Position numbers and translations under genes: made by a program. A DNA stretch of 64,000 nt from a virus (taxonomy: Duplodnaviria; Heunggongvirae; Uroviricota; Caudoviricetes): IMG/VR virus record IMGVR_UViG_3300042544_003430; one strand, given 5' to 3'. The notes beneath the pieces are model-generated. The model was not told the DNA's origin. It did not search any database and worked only from the letters and a program-made list of their open reading frames with translations. This document shows positions 2,465 through 58,010 of the stretch, piece after piece (position 1 is the first letter of the stretch; each line of letters starts with the position of its first letter).

Positions 2465-3076
2465 ATGGCAACACTAAAAGAATTCTTAACTATGAGAGAG
2501 AACATGGAAATCCAAGCAATTGAGGTTCCTGGTCTTGAACTGCCTGCTCAGACTTCCGAGCCTGTAGTAGTAGGATCAGGAGTGCCTAAACCAAAGACTC
2601 TGTCATCAGAGATCATCTCGGCTTTAGAAGCAAGACTCAAAGATGAATACACAGCTCACTACACATACCGTAACGCAGCCAACTGGTGCAAGAACATGAA
2701 CTATAAGGCAGCAGCAGCCTACTTCGAAGGCGAAGCAGCAGAGGAGTTAGAACACGCAGCTGGACTTCAGGATTACATGACCCAGTGGAACTGTTTACCA
2801 CAGATCCCACCTGTAACTGTGCCTAACGAGTTTACCTCTCTTGTGCATATCATAGGACATGCCTACACTATCGAGTATGATCTGCTTCAGAAGTACTCTG
2901 CACTTCAAAGGGCCTTTGATGCTGCTCATCCTGCTACATTCAATTTCATTCAGAAGTATGTAGACATTCAGAATGAGTCTGTTGCTAGCTACTCTGATCT
3001 CCTAAATGCTCTTGAGCTCATTAACATTGATTCCAAGCTAGACATTCTAATCTTCGAAGGAAGATATTTCGGATAA
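2465..3076 (+). CDS. ferritin-like diiron protein
   Basis: YTYRNAANWC...AAYFEGEAAEELEHAAGL and ATFNFIQKYVDIQNES match non-heme ferritin helix B/C signatures (WC...A.EE.EHA..L and ATFNFLQWYV.EQ.EE). Confidence 0.65.
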   Translation: MATLKEFLTMRENMEIQAIEVPGLELPAQTSEPVVVGSGVPKPKTLSSEIISALEARLKDEYTAHYTYRNAANWCKNMNYKAAAAYFEGEAAEELEHAAGLQDYMTQWNCLPQIPPVTVPNEFTSLVHIIGHAYTIEYDLLQKYSALQRAFDAAHPATFNFIQKYVDIQNESVASYSDLLNALELINIDSKLDILIFEGRYFG

Positions 3077-3098
3077 TCTTATAACACAAACACAACAC

Positions 3099-3134
3099 GA
3101 AGGTGTCTCTACTAGGGGCACCTTCTTTGTGTGT
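3099..3134 (+). terminator. intrinsic terminator-like hairpin plus T-run
   Basis: GAAGGTG-tctctactagggg-CACCTTC followed by tttgtgtgt, just after the 2465-3076 stop. Confidence 0.45.
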
Positions 3135-3288
3135 CCTAGTCTTATATGTAGAATGGATTGGGGTGCCGCCGGGAGGGGATGTAAACCCAAAATTTGGGCC
3201 TGAGCTTGGGAGGCCCTAGGGGGATCGGGAGCAAAACTCAGGGGCAGGGCCCAGCGCGCTTTAAAGCACATGATTGACATTGCCTGCA
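3135..3288. repeat. second GC-rich island upstream of a family gene
   Basis: Local G/C runs (ggggtgccgccgggagggg, gggccctaggggg, gggcagggcccagcgcgc), unlike the flanking AT-rich sequence. Confidence 0.4.
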
Positions 3289-3300
3289 GGGATATATAAG
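3289..3300 (+). promoter_or_regulatory. motif B (GGGATATATAAG) 3 nt upstream of ATG 3304
   Basis: Same motif as upstream of 4145, 5041 and 34171. Confidence 0.45.
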
Positions 3301-3303
3301 CGA

Positions 3304-4131
3304 ATGAAGCACTTGCAGACATATAGCATCTTTGAATCCAAGACGGTACTGACTGAAGACCAGGAGACGTTCTTGTCTCTCTTCGTCGAACCTCTTGAGA
3401 ATTCGAAGGGGATGCCTGGGACTTGGTCCGTCAACCCAAAAACCGGCTTGGTTGACGTCAATGGAAACTTTGAGTGCCCACAAAGGGGATTGAAGGACTT
3501 TAAGGGAATCTCCTTTGGCCATGTGAGTGGAGCCTTTGACTGCGATCGAAACGAACTTGTCAGCTTGAAGGGTGCACCTCAGTTGGTGAGAGATTTCTCC
3601 TGCGATCGAAATGACCTTGTCAGTCTCGAGGGAGCACCTCAGTTTGTCAGGGGAGGCTTCTACTGCAACACCAATAGGCTGAAGAACTTAAAAGGTGGCC
3701 CGGTAGAAGTGGGAGGGGATTTCTCCTGCGTTGGCAATGACCTCAAGACCTTGGAGGGAAGTCCAAGAACGGTGGGAGGGGATTTCTACTGCTATTCAAA
3801 TTCAACTTCTCTTATCTCTTTAGCAGGGGCTCCAGAAACAATCGGTGGGACTTTTCACTGCGACTGGTTTGAACTTTCCAACTGGGGGGTTCCTGGCCTG
3901 CTGGAGACCATCAAGAAGGTCAACCCCAAAGCTCAGAAGATGATTTTGGACCTCCTGACTCCTGAGAAAATACAGCAGACGATTGACAGAGAGCCTGAGA
4001 AGATGGCTGTTGAATTAAAGGGGGTTTGGAAGACCCTGAAGGCGGATCCAAAATATGCAGGGCTAAAATTTCCAGAAGGAATCCAAGGGGATGCAGAGAT
4101 GCTGTCAGACCTGGACGACGTTGGTCTTTAA
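3304..4131 (+). CDS. MKH/VGL family protein with about 7 BspA-like leucine-rich repeats, C-terminal DLDDVGL
   Basis: Start set at the MKHLQTYSIFES ATG. Clear 22-aa tandem repeats of the form FxCxxNxLxSLEGAPxxVxGD. Ends ...LSDLDDVGL. Confidence 0.6.
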   Translation: MKHLQTYSIFESKTVLTEDQETFLSLFVEPLENSKGMPGTWSVNPKTGLVDVNGNFECPQRGLKDFKGISFGHVSGAFDCDRNELVSLKGAPQLVRDFSCDRNDLVSLEGAPQFVRGGFYCNTNRLKNLKGGPVEVGGDFSCVGNDLKTLEGSPRTVGGDFYCYSNSTSLISLAGAPETIGGTFHCDWFELSNWGVPGLLETIKKVNPKAQKMILDLLTPEKIQQTIDREPEKMAVELKGVWKTLKADPKYAGLKFPEGIQGDAEMLSDLDDVGL

Positions 4132-27033: not shown

Positions 27034-27513
27034 ATGGCAAAAGTAATCAAACCAACAGACTCAGATCAAGAAGTAGAATTTTATCCGGCAGTATTTTTAG
27101 CAGGATCCATCGAAATGGGAAAAGCTGAAGACTGGCAAAAAACAGTTGAGAAAGAATTAGAAAAATTAGACGTTACAATTTTTAATCCTAGAAGAGATGA
27201 CTGGGATAGCTCATGGACTCAAGAGCAATCTAATCCACAATTTAATCATCAGGTTAATTGGGAGTTGAACAAATTGGAAAGATGTGATGCCATCTTCATG
27301 TACTTCTCTCCAGAAACACAATCTCCAATATCTCTACTAGAACTAGGAAGATATTCCACATACGGAAAAATGATTGTTTGTTGTCCTAAAGGATTCTGGA
27401 GAAAAGGAAACGTAGATATCCTTTGCACCAGAGAAAATATTCCAGTATTTGAGGATCTACAATCTGCTATCGGGGCTTTGAAAACTAGAATCAACCAACA
27501 AATAATAGATTAA
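27034..27513 (+). CDS. Rcl/DNPH1-like 2'-deoxynucleoside 5'-phosphate N-hydrolase / nucleoside 2-deoxyribosyltransferase family protein
   Basis: VFLAGSIEMG and LLELGRYS motifs typical of the family. Confidence 0.55.
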   Translation: MAKVIKPTDSDQEVEFYPAVFLAGSIEMGKAEDWQKTVEKELEKLDVTIFNPRRDDWDSSWTQEQSNPQFNHQVNWELNKLERCDAIFMYFSPETQSPISLLELGRYSTYGKMIVCCPKGFWRKGNVDILCTRENIPVFEDLQSAIGALKTRINQQIID

Positions 27514-27556
27514 TAGAATTAAATAATCCTCCTTTGTAAGATCTATTCATTATCGA

Positions 27557-27565
27557 CCGTATATT
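27557..27565 (+). promoter_or_regulatory. motif A upstream of 27583
   Basis: tcgaCCGTATATTtaataaacaagaaataaATG. Confidence 0.5.
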
Positions 27566-27582
27566 TAATAAACAAGAAATAA

Positions 27583-28032
27583 ATGGCAGTAATCGGAATT
27601 AATTACGAGGGGGGAAATTACCACGACGAGGAAGACAATTTAGTTGAAGATGAGATTATTTACGAATTTGTTTATCTTCACACCTCGGAAAAAGAAATGA
27701 TTTTTAACAGTGGAAATTTTCCCAAGGACTGGTATGATGCTAAGAAAGCTTTCATAACTTTACAGGAAGAAAATCCAAATGACCCTAATTATTTTCATTT
27801 ATCTGGATCCTCTACATGCGATCATTTTATCATGGATGGTGCAAAATTTGACTCGGCTTACCTGCACGTGGAGGGAGAAACCCCCGTTCTAAAATACTGT
27901 ATTCCGTATGAGCATCCACCTTCAATCGAGACGATGGTCGAAAACAGATCAATTTATGAAGGAGGTTGGGAATTCTTTGTTCCAGAAGGAACTAAACCAA
28001 CCTGGGAAGAATTAAAAGAATCATTTAAATAA
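27583..28032 (+). CDS. hypothetical protein (149 aa)
   Basis: ORF downstream of motif A. Confidence 0.4.
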   Translation: MAVIGINYEGGNYHDEEDNLVEDEIIYEFVYLHTSEKEMIFNSGNFPKDWYDAKKAFITLQEENPNDPNYFHLSGSSTCDHFIMDGAKFDSAYLHVEGETPVLKYCIPYEHPPSIETMVENRSIYEGGWEFFVPEGTKPTWEELKESFK

Positions 28033-28041
28033 AAAATCAGC

Positions 28042-28773
28042 ATGTTTAAATTTTATGAAGTTGGAGGAAAAATAAGAGACGAAATTTTAGAATTATCTTC
28101 TAAAGATGTTGATTATGTAGCAGTTCCGAAAGAAGAATTACTAGATACAGTTGAGAAGGCAGAAGATATGTTCAGCATGTTAGAATCTTTTCTAAGAGTA
28201 GAAAAATTTGAGATCTTCTTGGTAACCCCAGACTGTTTTACAATTAGAGCAAAATTCCCAGCAGGACACAAATACTCAGGGGTTGCAGACTTTGTAATGG
28301 CCAGAAAGGAAATTGGTTATATTCCAGGAACTAGAACCCCAATTGTTAAGCCGGGAACCCTATTTGACGATCTTCAGAGAAGAGATTTTACCCTAAACGC
28401 TTTAGCAAAAGACGAGGACGGAACCATAATCGATTTCTTTGGAGGAATAGAGGATCTAAAGAAAAACCGTTTAAAAACTCCACTAGACTGCAAAATAACT
28501 TTTGATGACGATCCGCTTAGAATTCTTAGGGCCATCAGATTTTGTATAACTAAAGGGTTTTGGATTGGACCCTATATGGACGGGGTAATTCAGGATTACG
28601 ACTACGAAGGAAAAATGGGGGTAGTTTCTATGGAGAGAATAAGAGAAGAATTGTTCAAATGTTTCAAACACGATACATTAAAAACCCTCAAAACACTTCA
28701 CGAATACCCAGCCCTAAGAAACTACATTTTTGAAAAAAATACACTTTGGTTAAAACCCACAATGGAGCAATAA
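28042..28773 (+). CDS. tRNA nucleotidyltransferase (CCA-adding)/poly(A) polymerase head-domain protein, minimal form
   Basis: YEVGGKIRDEILE...KDVDYVAV (Pol-beta NTase head) and the hallmark RRDFTLNAL motif. Only 243 aa. Confidence 0.65.
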   Translation: MFKFYEVGGKIRDEILELSSKDVDYVAVPKEELLDTVEKAEDMFSMLESFLRVEKFEIFLVTPDCFTIRAKFPAGHKYSGVADFVMARKEIGYIPGTRTPIVKPGTLFDDLQRRDFTLNALAKDEDGTIIDFFGGIEDLKKNRLKTPLDCKITFDDDPLRILRAIRFCITKGFWIGPYMDGVIQDYDYEGKMGVVSMERIREELFKCFKHDTLKTLKTLHEYPALRNYIFEKNTLWLKPTMEQ

Positions 28774-28778
28774 AATAT

Positions 28779-29465
28779 ATGATTTACGTATCAATAGACA
28801 TCGAAACTACAGGACTAAATCCTGAAACTTGCCAAATCCTTTCTATAGGAGCAGTTATAGAGGACACTCAAAAACAATTGGCTTTCGAGGAAATTCCGAA
28901 ATTCCATTGCGCAATACTGAAAAATGAAAGGGATATAATCTCCGGTGAGATTTATGCTTTGAATATGAATAGGGATTTGATAGAAAGCATCACCTACTAT
29001 TCTACAGCTAAAGATCAAGATGAAAAGAATGATCTAGTTCATTTTACAGGAATGCAGTTTGTTAGAGAAGAAGATATTGCAGAACATTTTTTCCAATTCC
29101 TTTATCGGAACGGATTCAAGCCAAACGAGTCTGATCTACCCCTGAATAAAAAAATTAAAATAATAAATGGAATATCTTATCCTGTTTTGGATTCTTCTGT
29201 AAAGCCAATCACCATAAATGTAGCTGGGAAAAATTTCTCTGGATTTGATAGAAAATTTCTAGATTTACTTCCTAGATGGAAGCAACTAATCAGAACAAGA
29301 AGTAGAGTTATAGATCCAGGTGTATTGTTTGTAGACTGGGAAAATGATGACGCAGTTCCTTCTTTAGATTCCTGCAAAAAAAGAGCACTAATAGAAGGAG
29401 TGGTTACCCATAATGCTTTAGAGGATGCTTGGGATGTTATTCAAGTCTTAAGAACAAAATACTAA
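28779..29465 (+). CDS. DEDDh 3'-5' exonuclease (DnaQ/RNase T-like)
   Basis: Exo I motif IDIETTGL and Exo III motif HNALEDA. Start set at MIYVSIDIE, immediately after the upstream stop. Confidence 0.6.
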   Translation: MIYVSIDIETTGLNPETCQILSIGAVIEDTQKQLAFEEIPKFHCAILKNERDIISGEIYALNMNRDLIESITYYSTAKDQDEKNDLVHFTGMQFVREEDIAEHFFQFLYRNGFKPNESDLPLNKKIKIINGISYPVLDSSVKPITINVAGKNFSGFDRKFLDLLPRWKQLIRTRSRVIDPGVLFVDWENDDAVPSLDSCKKRALIEGVVTHNALEDAWDVIQVLRTKY

Positions 29466-30049
29466 TGAAAATAATCTATTTAGACATAGACGGAGTTCTT
29501 AATTGTGAAAAAGCATACCGAGATGGATTTTGCAAATATCAAGAATGGCCAGATACCAAAAGGGAGGATGGTAAAAATTACCACCAGACTTTTTATCCCC
29601 CGGCTAAGGACCTTCTAAATAAGCTTATTCTAGAAACAGGTGCTAAGGTTGTTGTCTCTTCTACCTGGAGACATTCGGGTTTAGAATTTATTAAAAACGT
29701 TTGGACTCAAGAGAAAATGGAAGGAGAAATCATAGGGATAACCCCTTCCTTTAGAGGAGACATTGAAGGGTATACAATTCCTAGAGGATGTGAGATTGAA
29801 TATCACCTTGAAAAAGAATTAGGATTTCATCACATCAATTGGGACAAAGACACTCAGCAAGAATATATTGACAAATCTAACGTCGATAATTACATTATCA
29901 TAGACGACGATTCAGATATGTTGTACACGCAAAGAAATCATTTTGTTCATGTCTTACCTTCTCCTAGGAACAAAGAGGGATTTAACGAAAAATATTTTGA
30001 AGAAGCACTAAAAAAATTATCAAAAACAGTTATAGATTTGAACTACTGA
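29465..30049 (+). CDS. HAD-family phosphatase (polynucleotide 3'-phosphatase PNK3P-like)
   Basis: IIYLDIDGVL (DxDGV motif I) and KVVVSSTW (motif II-like). TAATG overlap with the upstream gene. Confidence 0.45.
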   Translation: MKIIYLDIDGVLNCEKAYRDGFCKYQEWPDTKREDGKNYHQTFYPPAKDLLNKLILETGAKVVVSSTWRHSGLEFIKNVWTQEKMEGEIIGITPSFRGDIEGYTIPRGCEIEYHLEKELGFHHINWDKDTQQEYIDKSNVDNYIIIDDDSDMLYTQRNHFVHVLPSPRNKEGFNEKYFEEALKKLSKTVIDLNY

Positions 30050-30078: not shown

Positions 30079-30162
30079 GCTCTGAGAAATTAATTTGACA
30101 TTGGTAGTCAAGCCAGCTTCTAAACCTGGTTTTTAGGGGTTCGATACCTCTTCAGAGCACCA
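30079..30162 (+). tRNA. noncanonical tRNA-like gene, putative amber suppressor (anticodon CUA), with encoded CCA
   Basis: Perfect 7-bp acceptor stem (GCTCTGA/TCAGAGC), discriminator A plus CCA. T-arm AGGGG-TTCGATA-CCTCT. D-arm TGAC-ATTGGTA-GTCA. Anticodon stem GCCAG/CTGGT with loop cttCTAaac (U33-CUA-A37 if a C.C closing pair is allowed). Irregular: 10 nt instead of 2 between acceptor and D stems. Confidence 0.45.
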
Positions 30163-30203: not shown

Positions 30204-30566
30204 ATGAAATAGATTAACAAATTTCAAGAAACAAAACTGGTAACTATTACCAGATCCGATATCCATCCAGGATATCAAATTCCTCAAACTGCTCACTCTA
30301 TCGCAGATTTTGCATACGAGCATCCGGAAGCATTTAAAGAATGGAAAGAGACATCAAACTCTGTCATCTGCTTATCCGTACCATCAGAGGAAAAACTACT
30401 CGACCTTTATTCAAAATTATCAGGACAAACTCCGACGACCAAGTTCTTCGAGCCTGACATCAACCAATGGACTTCTATCTGTTTATACGGAAGCCCCGAG
30501 GTTAGGAAAAAACTTTCACATTTACCATTAGCACTTAAAAAAATCGAAGACTATGTTATAGATTAA
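30204..30566 (+). CDS. PTH2-family peptidyl-tRNA hydrolase with in-frame amber (TAG) at codon 3
   Basis: ATG AAA TAG ATT AAC..., then a 117-codon open frame KLVTITRSDIHPGYQIPQTAHSIADF...FKEWKETSNSVICLSVPSEEKLL...FFEPDINQWTSICLYGSP. This matches PTH2 ([25 protein letters not shown]...QWEY...KVVVKA...[21 protein letters not shown]). No other ATG in frame. Confidence 0.55.
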
Positions 30567-30585
30567 TAACAAGAAAGAACTACTT

Positions 30586-31137
30586 GTGGCCATGAAATCT
30601 TGTCCACAAACAGAAACCCAATCTGTTCTAGATCACGGATTTTCTGTTAAGAATTACCTATTCGATCTTCTGGATCATTTAGAAAAAGGAACCCCTTTGA
30701 AGTTCGAATGGAAACTTCCAGAATGGATCTACGAGGAGAAAGAATTTATTCTTAAGACCTTACCCTCAAGACAAACTTTAAAGATATACACGGTGTTTCA
30801 CGACTGTGGTAAGCCTCAGTGTTTAACCATCGACGAGGAGGGCAAAAGACACTTCCCTAATCACGCAGAGGCTTCGTACAATACTTTCATCAATCTCTTT
30901 GATGATAATGCAGCAGCGGACTTAATACGCAGAGATATGGACATTCATTTACTTAAGTCCGAAGGTGTATCTGACTTCTGTAAAAATCCCAATGCAATAG
31001 CATCTTTAATTACTGGACTTGCAGAGATTCACTCTAACGCTGAAATGTTTGGAGGGATCGAGAGCACTAGCTTTAAGATTAAGTGGAAGTGCATCTCCAA
31101 GAGAGGAAAACAAATTATTCAAACCATAAAAAAATAA
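30586..31137 (+). CDS. possible HD-domain phosphohydrolase
   Basis: LDHGF...TVFHDCGKP...NHAE residues resemble an HD motif arrangement. Confidence 0.3.
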   Translation: MAMKSCPQTETQSVLDHGFSVKNYLFDLLDHLEKGTPLKFEWKLPEWIYEEKEFILKTLPSRQTLKIYTVFHDCGKPQCLTIDEEGKRHFPNHAEASYNTFINLFDDNAAADLIRRDMDIHLLKSEGVSDFCKNPNAIASLITGLAEIHSNAEMFGGIESTSFKIKWKCISKRGKQIIQTIKK

Positions 31138-47131: not shown

Positions 47132-47998
47132 TTGAAAAATATAATTCTATATGAGGAATTTTCCGACGGATTGAACCGTTTGAGATCGATTTTCGAATCT
47201 CTAGAATCAAATCCTATTGCTAACATAGAGGTTTATAACCGAAATATGGAAGCATCCTATCCGGATAAATTATTCTTTTTAGATATTATAAATCCGGATG
47301 TTATCGTAGATTTTGGGTGTGCAGACGGAACGATCCTTTCCAAGATGAAGGAGAAAAATCCAGATGTTAAATTGATAGGATACGATCTTAGTAAAGCTAT
47401 GCTTGCTAAAGCAAGAGCTAAACTAGGACCAGACGTTTTATTAACCGATTCTTGGAGTGAGGTTCAATCTGAATTGGAATCTTATGATAAACCAGCTCTT
47501 GTATTATCTTCGGTAATTCACGAAGTTTATTCTTATTCTCATCCTAAAGAAGTTAAAAAATTCTGGGAGGATAGAGTATTTGGTGGAGACTTTAAATGGA
47601 TAGTAATCAGAGACATGATTCCTTCTGTTGAAATGAGTAGAAAAGAAGCATCCGAATTCCAGGACGATGTTGACAAAGTTAAATCTGCGGCAGATCCAAA
47701 ATACTTAAAGTCTTACGAAGAAAAGTGGGATGATATTGGAAGCAGCTATAAATTCTTAGCTCACTTTTTACTAAAATATAAATTCACAGATAACTGGACT
47801 AGAGAAGTAGCAGAAAACTATCTTCCTCTTTCTCTTGAAACTCTATACAAGAAAATACCTCCGGGATATGAAATTATTTTTGAAGATAATTTTGTTCTTC
47901 CCTATCTAAAAAAAGAAGTCAAAAAGGACTTCGATGTAGACATTAAGCACACTACACATGCTAAAATGATTATAGAAAATAAAAATTTTGAAAAATGA
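47132..47998 (+). CDS. class I SAM-dependent methyltransferase
   Basis: VIVDFGCADGTILSKM motif I. N-terminus MKNIILYEEFSDG matches the family-type N-terminal peptide. Confidence 0.5.
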   Translation: MKNIILYEEFSDGLNRLRSIFESLESNPIANIEVYNRNMEASYPDKLFFLDIINPDVIVDFGCADGTILSKMKEKNPDVKLIGYDLSKAMLAKARAKLGPDVLLTDSWSEVQSELESYDKPALVLSSVIHEVYSYSHPKEVKKFWEDRVFGGDFKWIVIRDMIPSVEMSRKEASEFQDDVDKVKSAADPKYLKSYEEKWDDIGSSYKFLAHFLLKYKFTDNWTREVAENYLPLSLETLYKKIPPGYEIIFEDNFVLPYLKKEVKKDFDVDIKHTTHAKMIIENKNFEK

Positions 47999-56450: not shown

Positions 56451-57266
56451 ATGAAGAAAAAAATAGCATTGGTGACAATGGCAAAAGATGAAGACTTGTA
56501 TATTCAAGAGTGGATCGATTATCATTTGAAATTAGGATTTGATAGTATATTCATCTATCAAAACAATTGGAGATTTAATAGTGAAGACTTGGATGAAAGA
56601 GTTCATCTTTTAGAGTGGGATATAGATTCCCCAGGTGATATGGATAACACCCCATGGTTATCAAATAGAATTGCTATGGCTTACACTCATTTTGGAAAAA
56701 CATATCACGATCAATTTGAATGGGCTGCTTTTATTGATGTCGACGGGTTTCTGGTATTGAAGCAAACGAACGATGTCAAAGAGTTTATTGCTAAATTTGA
56801 CAACGTTCCCCAAAGACAAGTTGTAATCAATCTAGCACAATTTGGTGATAATGGTCATACCGAGTTTGATCCGAACAACGCAAGTGTATTGGAAAGATTT
56901 ACTAAAAGATGGGGTAAACCTTATACTCACACCTACTATCATGTTGGACCAATATGCAAATTACACGAAAACTTTGATAAGCATGGGGTTCATATGGTAC
57001 ACGATGAAGAATGGATTGATGTAGATGGTGTAGTAGGCATAGGTACTTCAACTATTTTGAATTGCTCAAGAAAGGTATCATACGATACAGCACAACTAAA
57101 CCACTATTATACAAAGACTCTACCAGAATGGCTTAATAAATGTAATAGAACTCGTCCAGAGGGTGATCAGTATAGGAGTACGATTGAAGGTTTTTTTGAA
57201 CACAACCACAACGATGTAGAAGACTTTCATGCTTTAAACTTTTTTAGAAATCAACAAACTTTGTAG
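56451..57266 (+). CDS. GT92/DUF23-like glycosyltransferase
   Basis: KIALVTMAKDEDLYIQEWIDYHLKLGFDSIFIYQNN resembles the GT92 N-terminal signature. Confidence 0.4.
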   Translation: MKKKIALVTMAKDEDLYIQEWIDYHLKLGFDSIFIYQNNWRFNSEDLDERVHLLEWDIDSPGDMDNTPWLSNRIAMAYTHFGKTYHDQFEWAAFIDVDGFLVLKQTNDVKEFIAKFDNVPQRQVVINLAQFGDNGHTEFDPNNASVLERFTKRWGKPYTHTYYHVGPICKLHENFDKHGVHMVHDEEWIDVDGVVGIGTSTILNCSRKVSYDTAQLNHYYTKTLPEWLNKCNRTRPEGDQYRSTIEGFFEHNHNDVEDFHALNFFRNQQTL

Positions 57267-57269
57267 ATT

Positions 57270-58010
57270 ATGGATATTATAAATACAAATTTGAATGTGC
57301 AAAAGATTAGTGATCCGTATGATATATGGATTATTGATAATTTTTTAAAAGAACATACTTTGAAAGGTATTAAAGATGCATGGCCATCTTATGAAAATGA
57401 TGCTTGGTATGTTGGACACCCTGAAATAGACGGTAAAAAGAATATATTAGAACAGGGTATGCTAGGAATTAGTAAAGTAGGGGAAATGCCTGAATTCATT
57501 AGCAATGTTATGAGTTATATCCACACAAAAGAGTTTACAGAAAGGATATCTAACCTTTTAAATTTACAAAACCTATTTCCAGATGAGCATATGAGATGGT
57601 CAGGTATGAGAACAATGCTTCCAAATTCATTCCAATTGATTCATAGTGATGCTAGAAAATCACCTAATTCAGGAATGCGTAAAGAGGTAACTTGTTTATT
57701 GTATCTGAATGAGAACTATAATAAAGAAAATGATGGCGGTTGTTTAGAAGTCTGGTCCGATGATATGTCAACTTGTATGCATGAAATTGAACCTATCTCA
57801 AATAGGTTTGTTGCTTTTTTAAACAGCGATACTTCCTACCATGGTGTACCAACTGTAAAATCAGAAAGAAAGTTAATTACATTCTCTATTTTAGCAAATG
57901 ATAGTTCTACCGATCGATATAAAGCTCTATTCGTTGCAAGACCTACCGATTCTGTTGAAGTTGGAATCGAAGGTGTTAAAAGGTCACAAATAAAAGATAT
58001 TAAAAAATAA
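57270..58010 (+). CDS. 2OG-Fe(II) oxygenase-like protein
   Basis: IHSDAR...LLYLNENYNKENDGGCLEVW...YHGVP resembles the HxD...H facial triad with a prolyl-hydroxylase-like core. Confidence 0.4.
   Translation: MDIINTNLNVQKISDPYDIWIIDNFLKEHTLKGIKDAWPSYENDAWYVGHPEIDGKKNILEQGMLGISKVGEMPEFISNVMSYIHTKEFTERISNLLNLQNLFPDEHMRWSGMRTMLPNSFQLIHSDARKSPNSGMRKEVTCLLYLNENYNKENDGGCLEVWSDDMSTCMHEIEPISNRFVAFLNSDTSYHGVPTVKSERKLITFSILANDSSTDRYKALFVARPTDSVEVGIEGVKRSQIKDIKK

What the first reader, a model, noticed from the sequence alone, without database searches (positions are those of the whole stretch)
30079..30162. The tRNA-like gene has an 8-nt insertion between acceptor stem and D-arm
Acceptor (7 bp), D-arm (TGAC/GTCA with an ATTGGTA loop containing GG), anticodon arm, 4-nt variable loop, T-arm (TTCGATA loop), discriminator and CCA are all present. 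However, 10 nt (GAAATTAATT, which contains the palindrome AATTAATT) separate the acceptor and D stems instead of the canonical 2. The anticodon stem also needs a C31.C39 mismatch to give a 7-nt loop. This could be a degenerate tRNA, a tRNA with a small insertion or intron, or a tRNA-mimic regulatory RNA.
Basis: seen in the sequence. Interest (0 to 1): 0.6.

Follow-up and report, generated by a model that had tools for sequence, protein, structure and literature searches.

The report
Odd-shaped amber suppressor tRNA gating neighbours
The "tRNA-like gene with an insertion" looks like a working member of a conserved family of unusually shaped phage tRNAs that read the UAG stop codon, and the two genes just downstream, both related to enzymes that act on tRNA ends, each start with a short leader ending in an in-frame UAG that this tRNA would have to decode.

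Summary

- **A conserved family.** ARAGORN and Rfam do not call it. About 25 related phage loci carry the same architecture, with strong compensatory covariation.
- **Revised structure.** The first "insert" base pairs with the base 3' of the T stem in 20/20 sequences. This gives an 8-bp acceptor and 4-bp T stem (8/4), an 8-nt connector loop (A-R-N-U-U-A-A-W), a 5-6-bp D stem and a 31/39 mismatch.
- **Independent support.** A covariance model built without the window scores it 79.6 bits (E about 7e-20), the only strong hit in 64 kb.
- **Amber leaders.** The next two genes start ATG-AAA-TAG-ATT (PTH2-like peptidyl-tRNA hydrolase) and ATG-TTA-TAG-ATT (HD-domain protein resembling the C-terminal part of a tRNA nucleotidyltransferase). 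All 55 PTH2-like homologue loci examined carry such a leader.
- **Interchangeable partners.** A CUA tRNA lies nearby in most loci: this odd type, or a canonical one in Tenacibaculum phage pT24 and mycobacteriophages Bxz1 and Myrna.

Best reading: a functional noncanonical suppressor tRNA that licenses translation of amber-gated genes. The purpose of the gate is inferred. I found no prior description.

The parts
30079..30162 (+). Noncanonical amber-suppressor tRNA gene (anticodon CUA), 84 nt including an encoded CCA
   Evidence: Sequence read. Independent CM R2 scores it 79.6 bits, E 7e-20. Family alignment A4 and covariation. Missed by ARAGORN and below the Rfam threshold.
30079..30086 (+). 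5' strand of the 8-bp acceptor stem (GCTCTGAG). It pairs with 30151-30158 (TTCAGAGC). The 8th pair, G30086.U30151, is a wobble.
   Evidence: Pair col8:col77 of A4 is GC10/CG4/AU3/GU3, paired in 20/20 sequences with 7 double changes.
30087..30094 (+). 8-nt connector loop AAATTAAT between the acceptor and D stems (canonical tRNAs have 2 nt). Family consensus A-R-N-U-U-A-A-W.
   Evidence: Column composition. The second base (R) covaries with a variable-loop pyrimidine: AU7/GC7/other2. This pair was found post hoc and is tentative.
30095..30111 (+). D arm: 5-bp stem TTGAC/GTCAA with 7-nt loop ATTGGTA carrying G18 and G19
   Evidence: All 5 D-stem pairs show compensatory changes; 92.6% of cells are paired.
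30112..30130 (+). Anticodon arm: G.U (positions 26:44) plus CCAG/CTGG, a C31.C39 mismatch, and loop UUCUAAA. The anticodon CUA is at 30120-30122, flanked by U33 and A37-A38.
   Evidence: Sequence. Position 31:39 is unpaired in 17/20 family members. TCTAA is invariant.
30136..30150 (+). T arm: 4-bp stem GGGG/CCTC with loop TTCGATA
   Evidence: The T stem is 100% paired over 4 pairs. The former 5th pair is unpaired in 18/20 sequences.
30204..30212 (+). Amber leader 1: ATG AAA TAG, followed by ATT AAC
   Evidence: The same leader (start codon, 0-4 codons, TAG, then a purine) is present in all 55 PTH2-like homologue loci examined. There is no ATG, GTG or TTG downstream within this ORF.
30213..30566 (+). 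PTH2-like (peptidyl-tRNA hydrolase 2 superfamily) ORF of 117 codons, in frame with the leader
   Evidence: Pfam PTH2, 24 bits, E 4.9e-5. The family profile hits archaeal Pth2 structure 2zv3 at E 1.4e-4. phrog_1866.
30553..30561 (+). Amber leader 2: ATG TTA TAG, followed by ATT AAT. It overlaps the end of the PTH2-like gene.
   Evidence: The same leader heads the homologous gene in at least 18 distinct loci. Database proteins start MxQI..., where the Q stands for TAG.
30562..31137 (+). HD-domain protein (191 codons after the TAG). Its closest fold is the C-terminal part of a class II tRNA nucleotidyltransferase. It is fused to the PTH2-like domain in some phages.
28042..30049 (+). Upstream context in this phage only: a PolyA_pol-head nucleotidyltransferase (CCA-adding-like, 28042-28773), an RNase T-like exonuclease (28746-29465) and a HAD_SAK_2 phosphatase (29429-30049)
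   Evidence: Pfam hits. These are not conserved neighbours in the related loci.

Best explanation
The element is a functional phage-encoded amber-suppressor tRNA with a noncanonical but conserved architecture.

**Architecture.**
- An 8-bp acceptor stem stacked on a 4-bp T stem (8/4, 12 bp as in normal tRNAs).
- An extra 8-nt connector loop, A-R-N-U-U-A-A-W.
- A 5-6-bp D stem with G18 and G19, and a normal T loop, so the elbow should form.
- An anticodon arm with a 31/39 mismatch presenting U33-CUA-A37A38.

**Proposed mechanism.**
- It is probably transcribed with its neighbours on the + strand, excised and charged by a host synthetase (all inferred; amino acid unknown, Gln or Lys are plausible from general knowledge of amber suppressors).
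- It then decodes the UAG that sits 2 codons after the ATG of each of the two downstream genes: the PTH2-like hydrolase and the HD-domain protein related to tRNA nucleotidyltransferases.
- Without it, translation of these genes ends after a dipeptide. The tRNA therefore acts as a translational licence (an "amber gate") for enzymes whose relatives act on tRNA 3' ends.

**Shown versus inferred.** Shown: the structure, its conservation, the in-frame UAG leaders and their co-occurrence with CUA tRNAs. Inferred: expression, charging, actual read-through and the purpose of the gate. My preferred guess for the purpose is that output of these enzymes is coupled to suppressor activity, as a feedback or timing device.
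For: **The tRNA is a real, conserved structure.**
- The revised 8/4 structure has 96.3% of cells paired against 67.5% in shuffles. 19 of 22 pairs show double changes. The covariation score is 0.867 against 0.28 in shuffles and 0.08-0.15 for slid controls.
- The anticodon loop TCTAA, the G18G19 pair and the T loop are invariant.
- A CM built without the window finds it at 79.6 bits.

**The UAG codons are translated.**
- The window has only two leader-type in-frame TAGs in 64 kb, and both sit immediately downstream of the tRNA.
- All 46 IMG/VR homologue loci carry ATG, 0-4 codons, then TAG in frame. So do L001, L002, L049, L079, pT24 and three huge phages. Bxz1 and Myrna carry ATG TAG GTG and GTG TAG GTG.
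- Conserved protein sequence starts right after the TAG. Often there is no alternative start codon.
- The same pattern occurs 78 times with TAG against 17 with TAA and 9 with TGA. The base after TAG is always a purine.

**The tRNA and the leaders go together.**
- About 25 loci carry this odd tRNA on the same strand, often 25-250 nt upstream of the leader.
- Other loci carry a canonical CUA tRNA instead: L003, L007, L009, L040, L043, pT24, Bxz1, Myrna, LR756500, LR756501 and L079. The shared property is therefore UAG decoding.
- Searching from the tRNA side found 7 true family members. Six lie on contigs with amber-leader genes, including a new contig whose leader heads an unrelated ORF 25 nt downstream.

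**The genome uses the standard code.** Stop counts are TAA 65, TGA 10, TAG 8.
Against: - There is no expression, end-mapping, aminoacylation or proteomic evidence.
- An 8-nt connector has no known precedent in a translationally active tRNA. The closest precedent, allo-tRNA-like sequences with an extra loop at this position, could not be aminoacylated by E. coli aaRSs in vitro, as the review summarises Mukai et al. 2017 (PMC7609411).
- The 31/39 mismatch weakens the anticodon stem.
- 12 of the 50 metagenomic loci (window, L001-L049) still showed no CUA tRNA. The fetched flanks were only 2.5 kb, and four further loci (L012-14, L019) initially looked empty before L012-14 were shown to carry the tRNA 3.4 kb away.
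- In Bxz1 and Myrna the codon after TAG is GTG, so direct initiation there is possible.
- The biological reason for gating these genes is not established. A futile loop or mere genetic linkage cannot be excluded.
Confidence: 0.72

Rival explanations
1. A tRNA mimic that is not used for decoding. It would act as a decoy, ligand or regulator for the neighbouring tRNA-end enzymes, or for host tRNA-targeting defence nucleases. The UAG leaders would then work by another route or use a different suppressor.
For: The architecture is noncanonical and standard tRNA detectors do not call it. The neighbours are tRNA-related enzymes. Allo-tRNA-like RNAs with an extra loop at this position could not be aminoacylated by E. 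coli aaRSs in vitro (PMC7609411).
Against: The anticodon loop U33-CUA-A37A38 is invariant, and it matches the only stop codon used in the leaders. Canonical CUA tRNAs replace it next to the same amber-leader genes in other phages. The elbow nucleotides and the 12-bp acceptor/T branch needed for the ribosome and EF-Tu are kept. 8/4 tRNAs are translationally active in E. coli (PMC5389517).
Confidence: 0.1
2. The leaders are tiny upstream ORFs (ATG-x-TAG). They would control the downstream genes by termination and re-initiation at the following ATT or GTG, without any read-through. The suppressor tRNA would serve other targets.
For: ATT and GTG can act as weak or alternative start codons, and in Bxz1 and Myrna the annotated start is the GTG after the TAG. 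Dipeptide minigenes are a known phenomenon from phage lambda bar (from my own knowledge).
Against: Only TAG is used, although TAA is the dominant stop codon: 78 against 17 and 9, with stop usage. The ATG is always in frame with the long ORF. In several loci the codon after TAG is GTA, AAC or ACT, none of which is a start codon. CUA tRNAs co-localise with the leaders.
Confidence: 0.08
3. The extra nucleotides are removed after transcription, as a mini-intron or by processing, to give a canonical 7/5 tRNA.
For: Deleting 8 nt would restore a 2-nt connector.
Against: The first inserted base forms a covarying 8th acceptor pair, while the canonical 49:65 pair is absent in 18/20 sequences. The loop is conserved in sequence and length. 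No bulge-helix-bulge motif was noted on reading the sequence and alignment (not scanned for), and 8 nt is far too short for a group I intron. No bacterial or phage enzyme is known to do this (from my own knowledge).
Confidence: 0.04
4. A decaying tRNA pseudogene with a chance insertion.
For: It falls below the threshold of tRNA detectors.
Against: The same architecture occurs in about 25 divergent phage loci with compensatory substitutions in all four helices. An identical copy lies in an independent sample whose downstream gene has diverged (L001).
Confidence: 0.02

Closest known systems
(8/4) tRNAs and allo-tRNAs (Mukai et al. 2017, NAR; PMC5389517)
   Same: It has an 8-bp acceptor stem plus a 4-bp T stem giving a 12-bp branch. 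It has a long D stem, with a tetraloop in several family members. 8/4 tRNAs occur in phages: 8/4 tRNASer and tRNAHis were reported there. Some allo-tRNA-like sequences have an extra loop between the acceptor and D stems.
   Different: There is no long variable arm (5-6 nt here). The anticodon is natively CUA. The connector is a conserved 8-nt loop, A-R-N-U-U-A-A-W. There is a 31/39 mismatch. The tRNA is tied to amber-leader genes. The extra-loop allo-tRNA-like sequences come from Acidobacteria and could not be aminoacylated by E. coli aaRSs in vitro.
Suppressor tRNAs of stop-codon-recoded phages such as crAss-like and Lak (Borges et al.; Yutin et al.; Ivanova et al.)
   Same: It is a phage-encoded CUA tRNA in a phage whose host presumably uses the standard code. 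In-frame UAG is used as a regulatory device. Borges et al. predicted that noncanonical phage suppressor tRNAs escape detection.
   Different: Here the genome is standard-code, with only two in-frame UAGs in 64 kb. The UAGs sit at codon 2-6 of specific genes rather than scattered through late genes. The targets are tRNA-related enzymes, not lysis or structural genes.
prfB (RF2) autoregulation through an early in-frame stop codon
   Same: An in-frame stop codon early in an ORF makes expression depend on the competition between termination and an alternative decoding event. The gene product belongs to the same process, translation (from my own knowledge).
   Different: prfB uses a +1 frameshift at UGA and senses RF2 itself. 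Here a dedicated suppressor tRNA reads UAG in frame, and any feedback is hypothetical.
tRNAPyl
   Same: The anticodon is CUA and the core is noncanonical. ARAGORN labels canonical CUA tRNAs in the related loci as tRNA-Pyl.
   Different: tRNAPyl has a 0-1-nt connector, a small D loop without GG, a 6-bp anticodon stem, a 3-nt variable loop and a T loop lacking the U54-Psi55-C56 sequence (PMC7609411). This family has the opposite traits, and no pyl genes were noticed nearby.
Annotated suppressor tRNAs of cultured phages: pT24 tRNA-Sup, Bxz1 gt155 'tRNA-OTHER', and the two XacN1 CUA tRNAs
   Same: These are CUA tRNAs in standard-code phages. In pT24, Bxz1 and Myrna they lie within about 0.1-2.6 kb of a PTH2-like gene with a start-TAG leader.
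   Different: Those tRNAs have the canonical 7/5 shape. Their link to amber leaders is not annotated: pT24 BPT24_235 is annotated with a late start, and the XacN1 authors found no targets (PMC5852040).

Membership tests
Canonical elongator tRNA (Rfam RF00005 / ARAGORN model) | Reaches the family score threshold or is called by a tRNA finder | tested here: not met
   Rfam gives 16.9 bits against a gathering score of 29, and only as a local match to 30093-30152. ARAGORN finds no genes in the window and calls none of the roughly 25 family members.
Canonical elongator tRNA (Rfam RF00005 / ARAGORN model) | 7-bp acceptor and 5-bp T stem with a 2-nt connector (positions 8 and 9) | tested here: not met
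   Covariation supports an 8-bp acceptor, a 4-bp T stem and an 8-nt connector.
Canonical elongator tRNA (Rfam RF00005 / ARAGORN model) | Conserved elbow nucleotides: G18G19 in the D loop and T54-Psi55-C56...A58 in the T loop | tested here: met
   GG in the D loop and GTTCGA/TTCRA in the T loop are invariant or nearly so in A2 and A4.
Amber suppressor tRNA | Anticodon CUA at positions 34-36, flanked by U33 and a purine at 37 | tested here: met
   The loop is UUCUAAA in the window, and TCTAA is invariant in the alignment. The loop has 7 nt only if the 31.39 mismatch is counted as closing it.
Amber suppressor tRNA | In-frame UAG codons that need decoding in the same genome | tested here: met
   UAGs at 30210-12 and 30559-61 head conserved ORFs. 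The same holds in all homologue loci examined.
Amber suppressor tRNA | Aminoacylated and active on the ribosome | not testable with these tools
   This needs in vivo or in vitro assays.
(8/4) tRNA / allo-tRNA (Mukai 2017) | 12-bp acceptor branch made of an 8-bp acceptor and a 4-bp T stem | tested here: met
   Pair 8:65 is paired in 20/20 sequences (GC10/CG4/AU3/GU3). The canonical 49:65 pair is unpaired in 18/20. In the window itself, the 8th pair (G.U) and the alternative A49-U65 pair are both possible.
(8/4) tRNA / allo-tRNA (Mukai 2017) | Long variable arm (the Ser/Sec-like allo-tRNA definition) | tested here: not met
   The variable region is 4-7 nt in all members. It is therefore not an allo-tRNA in the strict sense. 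It is nearer to the phage 8/4 tRNAHis type, which the paper groups separately from the long-V-arm allo-tRNAs (PMC5389517).
(8/4) tRNA / allo-tRNA (Mukai 2017) | Sec-like D arm: a long stem with a tetraloop | tested here: inconclusive
   The stem is 5-6 bp in all members. A tetraloop is present in some (L002, L028, L044), but the window has a 7-nt loop.
tRNAPyl | 0-1-nt connector, small D loop lacking GG, 6-bp anticodon stem, 3-nt variable loop, T loop lacking the U54-Psi55-C56 sequence | tested here: not met
   The window has an 8-nt connector, GG in the D loop, a normal TTCGA T loop and a 5-6-nt variable region. Criteria are from PMC7609411.
Genome-wide TAG-recoded phage (genetic code 15) | Many genes interrupted by in-frame TAG, with coding density restored only by recoding | tested here: not met
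   The standard code gives a dense gene map. TAG ends 6 plausible genes. Only two leader-type in-frame TAGs are present.
PTH2 peptidyl-tRNA hydrolase (Pfam PF01981), for the downstream ORF | Reaches the Pfam gathering score; homology to solved Pth2 structures | tested here: met
   24.0 bits against a cutoff of 23, which is marginal. The family profile hits 2zv3 at E 1.4e-4. Catalytic activity was not tested.

The most novel reading that the evidence does not exclude
Phages from mycobacteriophages to flavobacterial and huge phages carry a natural "amber gate". A 2-6-codon leader ending in UAG makes synthesis of enzymes that act on tRNA 3' ends (the PTH2-like hydrolase, the HD/CCA-enzyme-like protein and a few others) conditional on a dedicated suppressor tRNA.

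In one large lineage that tRNA has evolved a new fold class: 8/4 with an 8-nt connector loop that re-supplies core contacts. The new fold would make it structurally orthogonal, for example resistant to host tRNA-targeting defences, or recognised specifically by its partner enzymes. Together these would form a feedback sensor of suppressor or tRNA-pool status.
Probability: 0.35. Interest if true: 0.9.

Novelty: new variant of a known kind. Interest (0 to 1): 0.8.

Why it matters
**A new natural tRNA architecture.** Standard annotation tools do not call it. This supports the suspicion that phage suppressor tRNAs are undercounted.

**A target for orphan suppressor tRNAs.** Suppressor tRNAs in standard-code phages have lacked known targets. 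The targets here are N-terminal amber leaders, not C-terminal extensions.

**Systematic mis-annotation.**
- Starts are called too late. Examples are pT24 BPT24_235, the truncated database proteins P0001 and P0004, and phrog_14850.
- TAG is silently translated as Q in metagenome protein catalogues.

**A testable regulatory principle.** The conserved link between a suppressor tRNA and enzymes related to peptidyl-tRNA hydrolase and the CCA-adding enzyme suggests a new form of translational control. It may bear on tRNA-centred phage-host conflict.

**Experimental and applied value.** Bxz1 and Myrna in M. smegmatis, and pT24, are cultured systems in which it can be tested. A naturally divergent suppressor scaffold is also of interest for genetic code expansion.

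Tried and rejected
- **Close relatives.** An exact-match search of the T arm and acceptor in IMG/VR, and a close-relative search with the HAD protein, both found nothing. A DNA search of GenBank phages found only a distant HAD match in Maribacter phages, with no such module.
- **Rfam and promoters.** Rfam gave nothing useful at either the gathering or the E-value threshold. The sigma-70 promoter and terminator scan was uninformative. The A-rich, Shine-Dalgarno-less upstream regions suggest a Bacteroidota-type host, but this is inference only.
- **Gln at the UAG position.** I first thought the UAG replaced a conserved Gln, because database homologues read MKQI. The DNA of P0003 has TAG there, so the Q is a translation artefact.
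- **Connector pairing with the mRNA.** The connector TAAT is the reverse complement of the ATTA that follows the UAG. I rejected pairing because there is no covariation in loci with TAG-GTA, TAG-AAC or TAG-ATA, and it is geometrically implausible on the ribosome.
- **Quadruplet (UAGA) decoding by a 9-nt loop.** Rejected: the ATG, the TAG and the ORF are in the same triplet frame, and a +1 shift meets a stop within about 10 codons (read from the sequence).
- **Amber initiator tRNA.** Rejected: G1-C72 is paired, there are no three G-C pairs in the anticodon stem, and an in-frame ATG always precedes the TAG.
- **Bacterial genomes.** Only two short MAG contigs carry the module, so there is no host clue.
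- **Other amber-leader ORFs.** Pfam found nothing for the L119 ORF or Bxz1 gp153.
- **Literature.** Six full-text searches found no description of the leader or of this tRNA type. The library is incomplete, so prior work cannot be excluded.
Full report
**1. The observation**

- a perfect 7-bp acceptor, GCTCTGA/TCAGAGC;
- ten intervening bases, GAAATTAATT;
- a D arm (TGAC, loop ATTGGTA, GTCA);
- an anticodon stem CCAG/CTGG with a C.C mismatch next to the loop;
- a T arm with loop TTCGATA, a discriminator A and an encoded CCA.

That makes this an amber (UAG) suppressor anticodon with U33 and A37-A38.

Standard detectors do not call it. ARAGORN reports no tRNA in the whole window. Rfam reports nothing at gathering thresholds. 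With permissive settings the tRNA model aligns only the D-to-T part (30093-30152) at 16.9 bits, against a threshold of 29. The strand folds into the cloverleaf with an unpaired 9-nt stretch, with a modest z-score of -2.4.

**2. It belongs to a conserved family with a revised architecture**

The window looks like a phage: 36.9% GC, densely coded in the standard code, with stop counts TAA 65, TGA 10 and TAG 8. It has no close relative in GenBank phages or IMG/VR.

I therefore used the downstream protein to find related loci. A structural scan and then a covariance model found CUA-anticodon elements with the same odd layout in about 25 loci. An identical copy lies in an independent sample (L001). 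ARAGORN calls none of these.

On the 20-sequence alignment A4, the four helices are strongly supported by compensatory changes. Two "canonical" pairs fail:
- 31:39 is unpaired in 17/20 sequences (C.C, A.C or C.A);
- 49:65 is unpaired in 18/20.

Instead, the first "insert" base pairs with the base 3' of the T stem in 20/20 sequences (GC 10, CG 4, AU 3, GU 3). Positions 26:44 are pairable in 16/20. The revised structure gives 96.3% paired cells against 67.5% in shuffles. Its covariation score is 0.867, against 0.28 in shuffles and 0.08-0.15 in slid controls.

The family is therefore an 8/4 tRNA: an 8-bp acceptor plus a 4-bp T stem, 12 bp in all as in normal tRNAs. It has:
- an 8-nt connector loop whose sequence, not pairing, is conserved (A-R-N-U-U-A-A-W);
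- a 5-6-bp D stem;
- a 4-7-nt D loop that keeps GG;
- a normal T loop.

The second connector base (R) covaries with a variable-loop pyrimidine: A-U 7, G-C 7, other 2. This resembles the R15:Y48 Levitt pair of normal tRNAs. It suggests the loop re-supplies core contacts that a shortened D loop no longer provides. I found this pair post hoc among many column pairs, so I treat it as tentative.

A model built from 19 relatives without the window or L001, using the 8/4 structure, scores the window element at 79.6 bits (E about 7e-20). It is the only strong hit in 64 kb.

**3. What it is for: amber leaders on the next two genes**

No ordinary ORF is called in the 530 bases downstream of the tRNA. 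That stretch contains a 117-codon frame with a marginal but real PTH2 (peptidyl-tRNA hydrolase 2) match. The frame has no ATG, GTG or TTG at all. It is preceded in frame by ATG AAA TAG.

Database homologues appeared to have Gln at that position (MKQI...). The DNA of one of them shows TAG there, so the Q is a translation artefact.

All 46 IMG/VR homologue loci have ATG, then 0-4 codons, then TAG, in frame with the conserved protein. So do:
- L002;
- a cultured flavobacterial jumbo phage, Tenacibaculum phage pT24, where the CDS is annotated with a late start;
- huge phages LR745206, LR756500 and LR756501;
- L079.

At only about 30% protein identity, mycobacteriophages Bxz1 (ATG TAG GTG) and Myrna (GTG TAG GTG) also have it.

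The next gene in the window begins the same way: ATG TTA TAG ATT at 30553-61. So do its homologues in at least 18 distinct loci, and many of the 1571 database clusters of that family (MxQI... N-termini). A few other gene families also carry the leader: a zinc-ribbon protein in L005, L041 and L045; an unrelated ORF in L119; and Bxz1 gp153.

The leader pattern occurs 78 times with TAG, against 17 with TAA and 9 with TGA, in the same sequences. The background rate in 1 Mb of unrelated phage loci is 0.41 per 10 kb. The base after TAG is always a purine, usually as ATT. From my own knowledge, this context favours amber suppression in bacteria.

**4. The tRNA and the leaders go together**

The odd tRNA lies on the same strand, often 25-250 nt upstream of the first leader. 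The gap is 41 nt in the window.

In other phages with the same amber-leader genes, the neighbour is a canonical 7/5 CUA tRNA. This holds for L003, L007, L009 (two copies), L040, L043, pT24 (annotated tRNA-Sup), Bxz1 (annotated tRNA-OTHER), Myrna, LR756500, LR756501 and L079. Some loci have further divergent CUA elements. This interchangeability says the shared function is decoding UAG.

I also searched from the tRNA side. A loose pattern scan of IMG/VR plus the independent model found 7 true family members among 118 hits:
- five lie on contigs already known to carry the amber-leader PTH2-like gene; this resolves three loci that had seemed to lack a tRNA, where it sits 3.4 kb upstream;
- one new contig has an amber leader 25 nt downstream;
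- one has none within 1.5 kb.

Only two short MAG contigs in 185,579 bacterial genomes carry the module, so it is a phage feature.

**5. The gated genes**

The PTH2-like family keeps the core motifs of the fold.

The two proteins are fused in several phages, which argues that they work together. From my own knowledge, the HD domain of E. coli CCA-adding enzyme has 2',3'-cyclic phosphodiesterase and phosphatase activity on RNA ends. I therefore infer, but have not shown, that both gated proteins act on tRNA 3' ends.

In this window only, a CCA-adding-like nucleotidyltransferase head, an RNase T-like exonuclease and a HAD_SAK_2 phosphatase lie just upstream. They are not conserved neighbours. 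Most family members lack an encoded CCA (ACAA), but the window copy has ACCA.

**6. Mechanism**

Best-supported reading (confidence about 0.7): the RNA is a working suppressor tRNA that reads the UAG two codons into each downstream gene. Without it, each message yields only a dipeptide.

Placing the UAG at the very start has three consequences:
- failed attempts cost little;
- the identity of the inserted residue does not matter;
- the codon becomes a pure gate.

Why these genes are gated is inference. The most economical idea is that output of tRNA-end enzymes is tied to the activity of the suppressor, by analogy with the early in-frame stop that autoregulates RF2. This could be feedback on the suppressor itself, a timer, or insurance that the enzymes are made only when the tRNA is present.

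The reason for the unusual fold is unknown. Candidates are orthogonality to host tRNA-targeting enzymes, tuned suppression efficiency, and specific recognition by partner proteins.

**7. Rivals**

I considered four rivals: a non-decoding mimic or decoy, uORF termination with re-initiation, removal of the insert, and a pseudogene. The evidence for and against each is listed separately. The exclusive use of TAG, the invariably in-frame ATG, the non-start codons after TAG in several loci, the replacement by canonical CUA tRNAs and the covariation argue against them.

**8. Comparison with the known**

8/4 tRNAs exist in phages (tRNASer and tRNAHis) and in bacteria (allo-tRNAs). Allo-tRNA-like sequences with an extra loop at the same position have been described. 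Those have long variable arms and could not be aminoacylated by E. coli aaRSs in vitro (PMC5389517; PMC7609411).

Recoded phages use suppressor tRNAs and in-frame stops to regulate late genes. Their authors anticipated undetectable noncanonical suppressors. The XacN1 study found CUA tRNAs but no targets, because it looked only for C-terminal extensions.

None of my six full-text searches found a description of amber leaders on PTH2/HD genes or of this tRNA type. I therefore class the tRNA as a new variant of a known kind. The amber-gate arrangement is the more novel part.

**9. Verdict**

The feature is real, conserved and unusual. What is missing is any experimental evidence of expression, charging or read-through. 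Cultured phages (pT24, Bxz1, Myrna) make the leader hypothesis directly testable.

Noticed in passing
window 30553-31137: The gene after the PTH2-like ORF also starts with an amber leader (ATG TTA TAG ATT). This leader overlaps the PTH2-like stop codon. Gene callers start the gene at GTG 30586 or ATG 30595, and database homologues are correspondingly truncated or carry a Q for the TAG.
   Followed up: yes
L051 (Tenacibaculum phage pT24, LC168164) 2956-3909; L053 (Bxz1) 1096-1851; L055 (Myrna) 2971-3534: Cultured phages carry the same start-TAG leader on PTH2-like genes next to CUA tRNAs. pT24 BPT24_235 is annotated with a late start. Both Bxz1 gp153 and gp154 are preceded by ATG-(x)-TAG-GTG-AC. 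Myrna's CUA tRNA is annotated as tRNA-Ser.
   Followed up: partly
L003 1890-1939 and 2347-2456; L011 463-548; L012 1765-1854 and 1973-2041; L021 1574-1647 and 1886-1972; L030 2196-2285: A second family of odd tRNA-like elements shares the acceptor AGTCAGG/CCTGACT, a Leu-like D arm and the T arm ACAGGTTCGAATCCTGT. Its anticodon region is scrambled or over-long. ARAGORN gives two of them implausible calls. None occurs in the window.
   Followed up: partly
L029/L047 2218-2286; L031/L032 2193-2261; L039 2188-2273; L045 1239-1306; L017 2350-2435; L026 2350-2439: Further divergent CUA-containing tRNA-like elements lie just upstream of amber-leader PTH2-HD fusion genes. Some appear to lack a D arm or to have 6-9-nt anticodon loops. 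Their structures were not resolved.
   Followed up: partly
window 56451-58010: A GT2 glycosyltransferase ORF ends TAG ATT ATG and is in frame with the following 2OG-Fe(II) oxygenase ORF. With an active suppressor this could yield a 518-aa fusion. The other TAG-terminated genes would gain only 3-16 codons.
   Followed up: partly
window 27034-30049: A cluster of nucleic-acid and tRNA-related genes lies upstream. It comprises a nucleoside 2-deoxyribosyltransferase-like protein, a PolyA_pol-head nucleotidyltransferase lacking the usual C-terminal part, an RNase T-like exonuclease and a HAD_SAK_2 'Swiss Army Knife RNA repair' phosphatase. The separately encoded HD-like protein may be the missing C-terminal partner of the nucleotidyltransferase.
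   Followed up: partly
L056 (LR756501) 3001-3318: In this 735-kb phage the PTH2-like ORF has a second, internal in-frame TAG (…FAQEFP*IYEQW…), and two CUA tRNAs lie downstream. This may be a lineage with wider TAG recoding.
   Followed up: no
window 47154-47247 (-): A weak match to the family model (15.5 bits, E about 0.07), inside a coding region. It is probably noise.
   Followed up: no
L041/L042/L045 1524-2456; L005 1553-2503: A third amber-leader gene family (ATG TAG ATT/GTT) of about 315 aa has repeated treble-clef zinc-ribbon domains (DUF723, DUF4379, CapR). L041 also has a sub-threshold Colicin_D match.
   Followed up: partly
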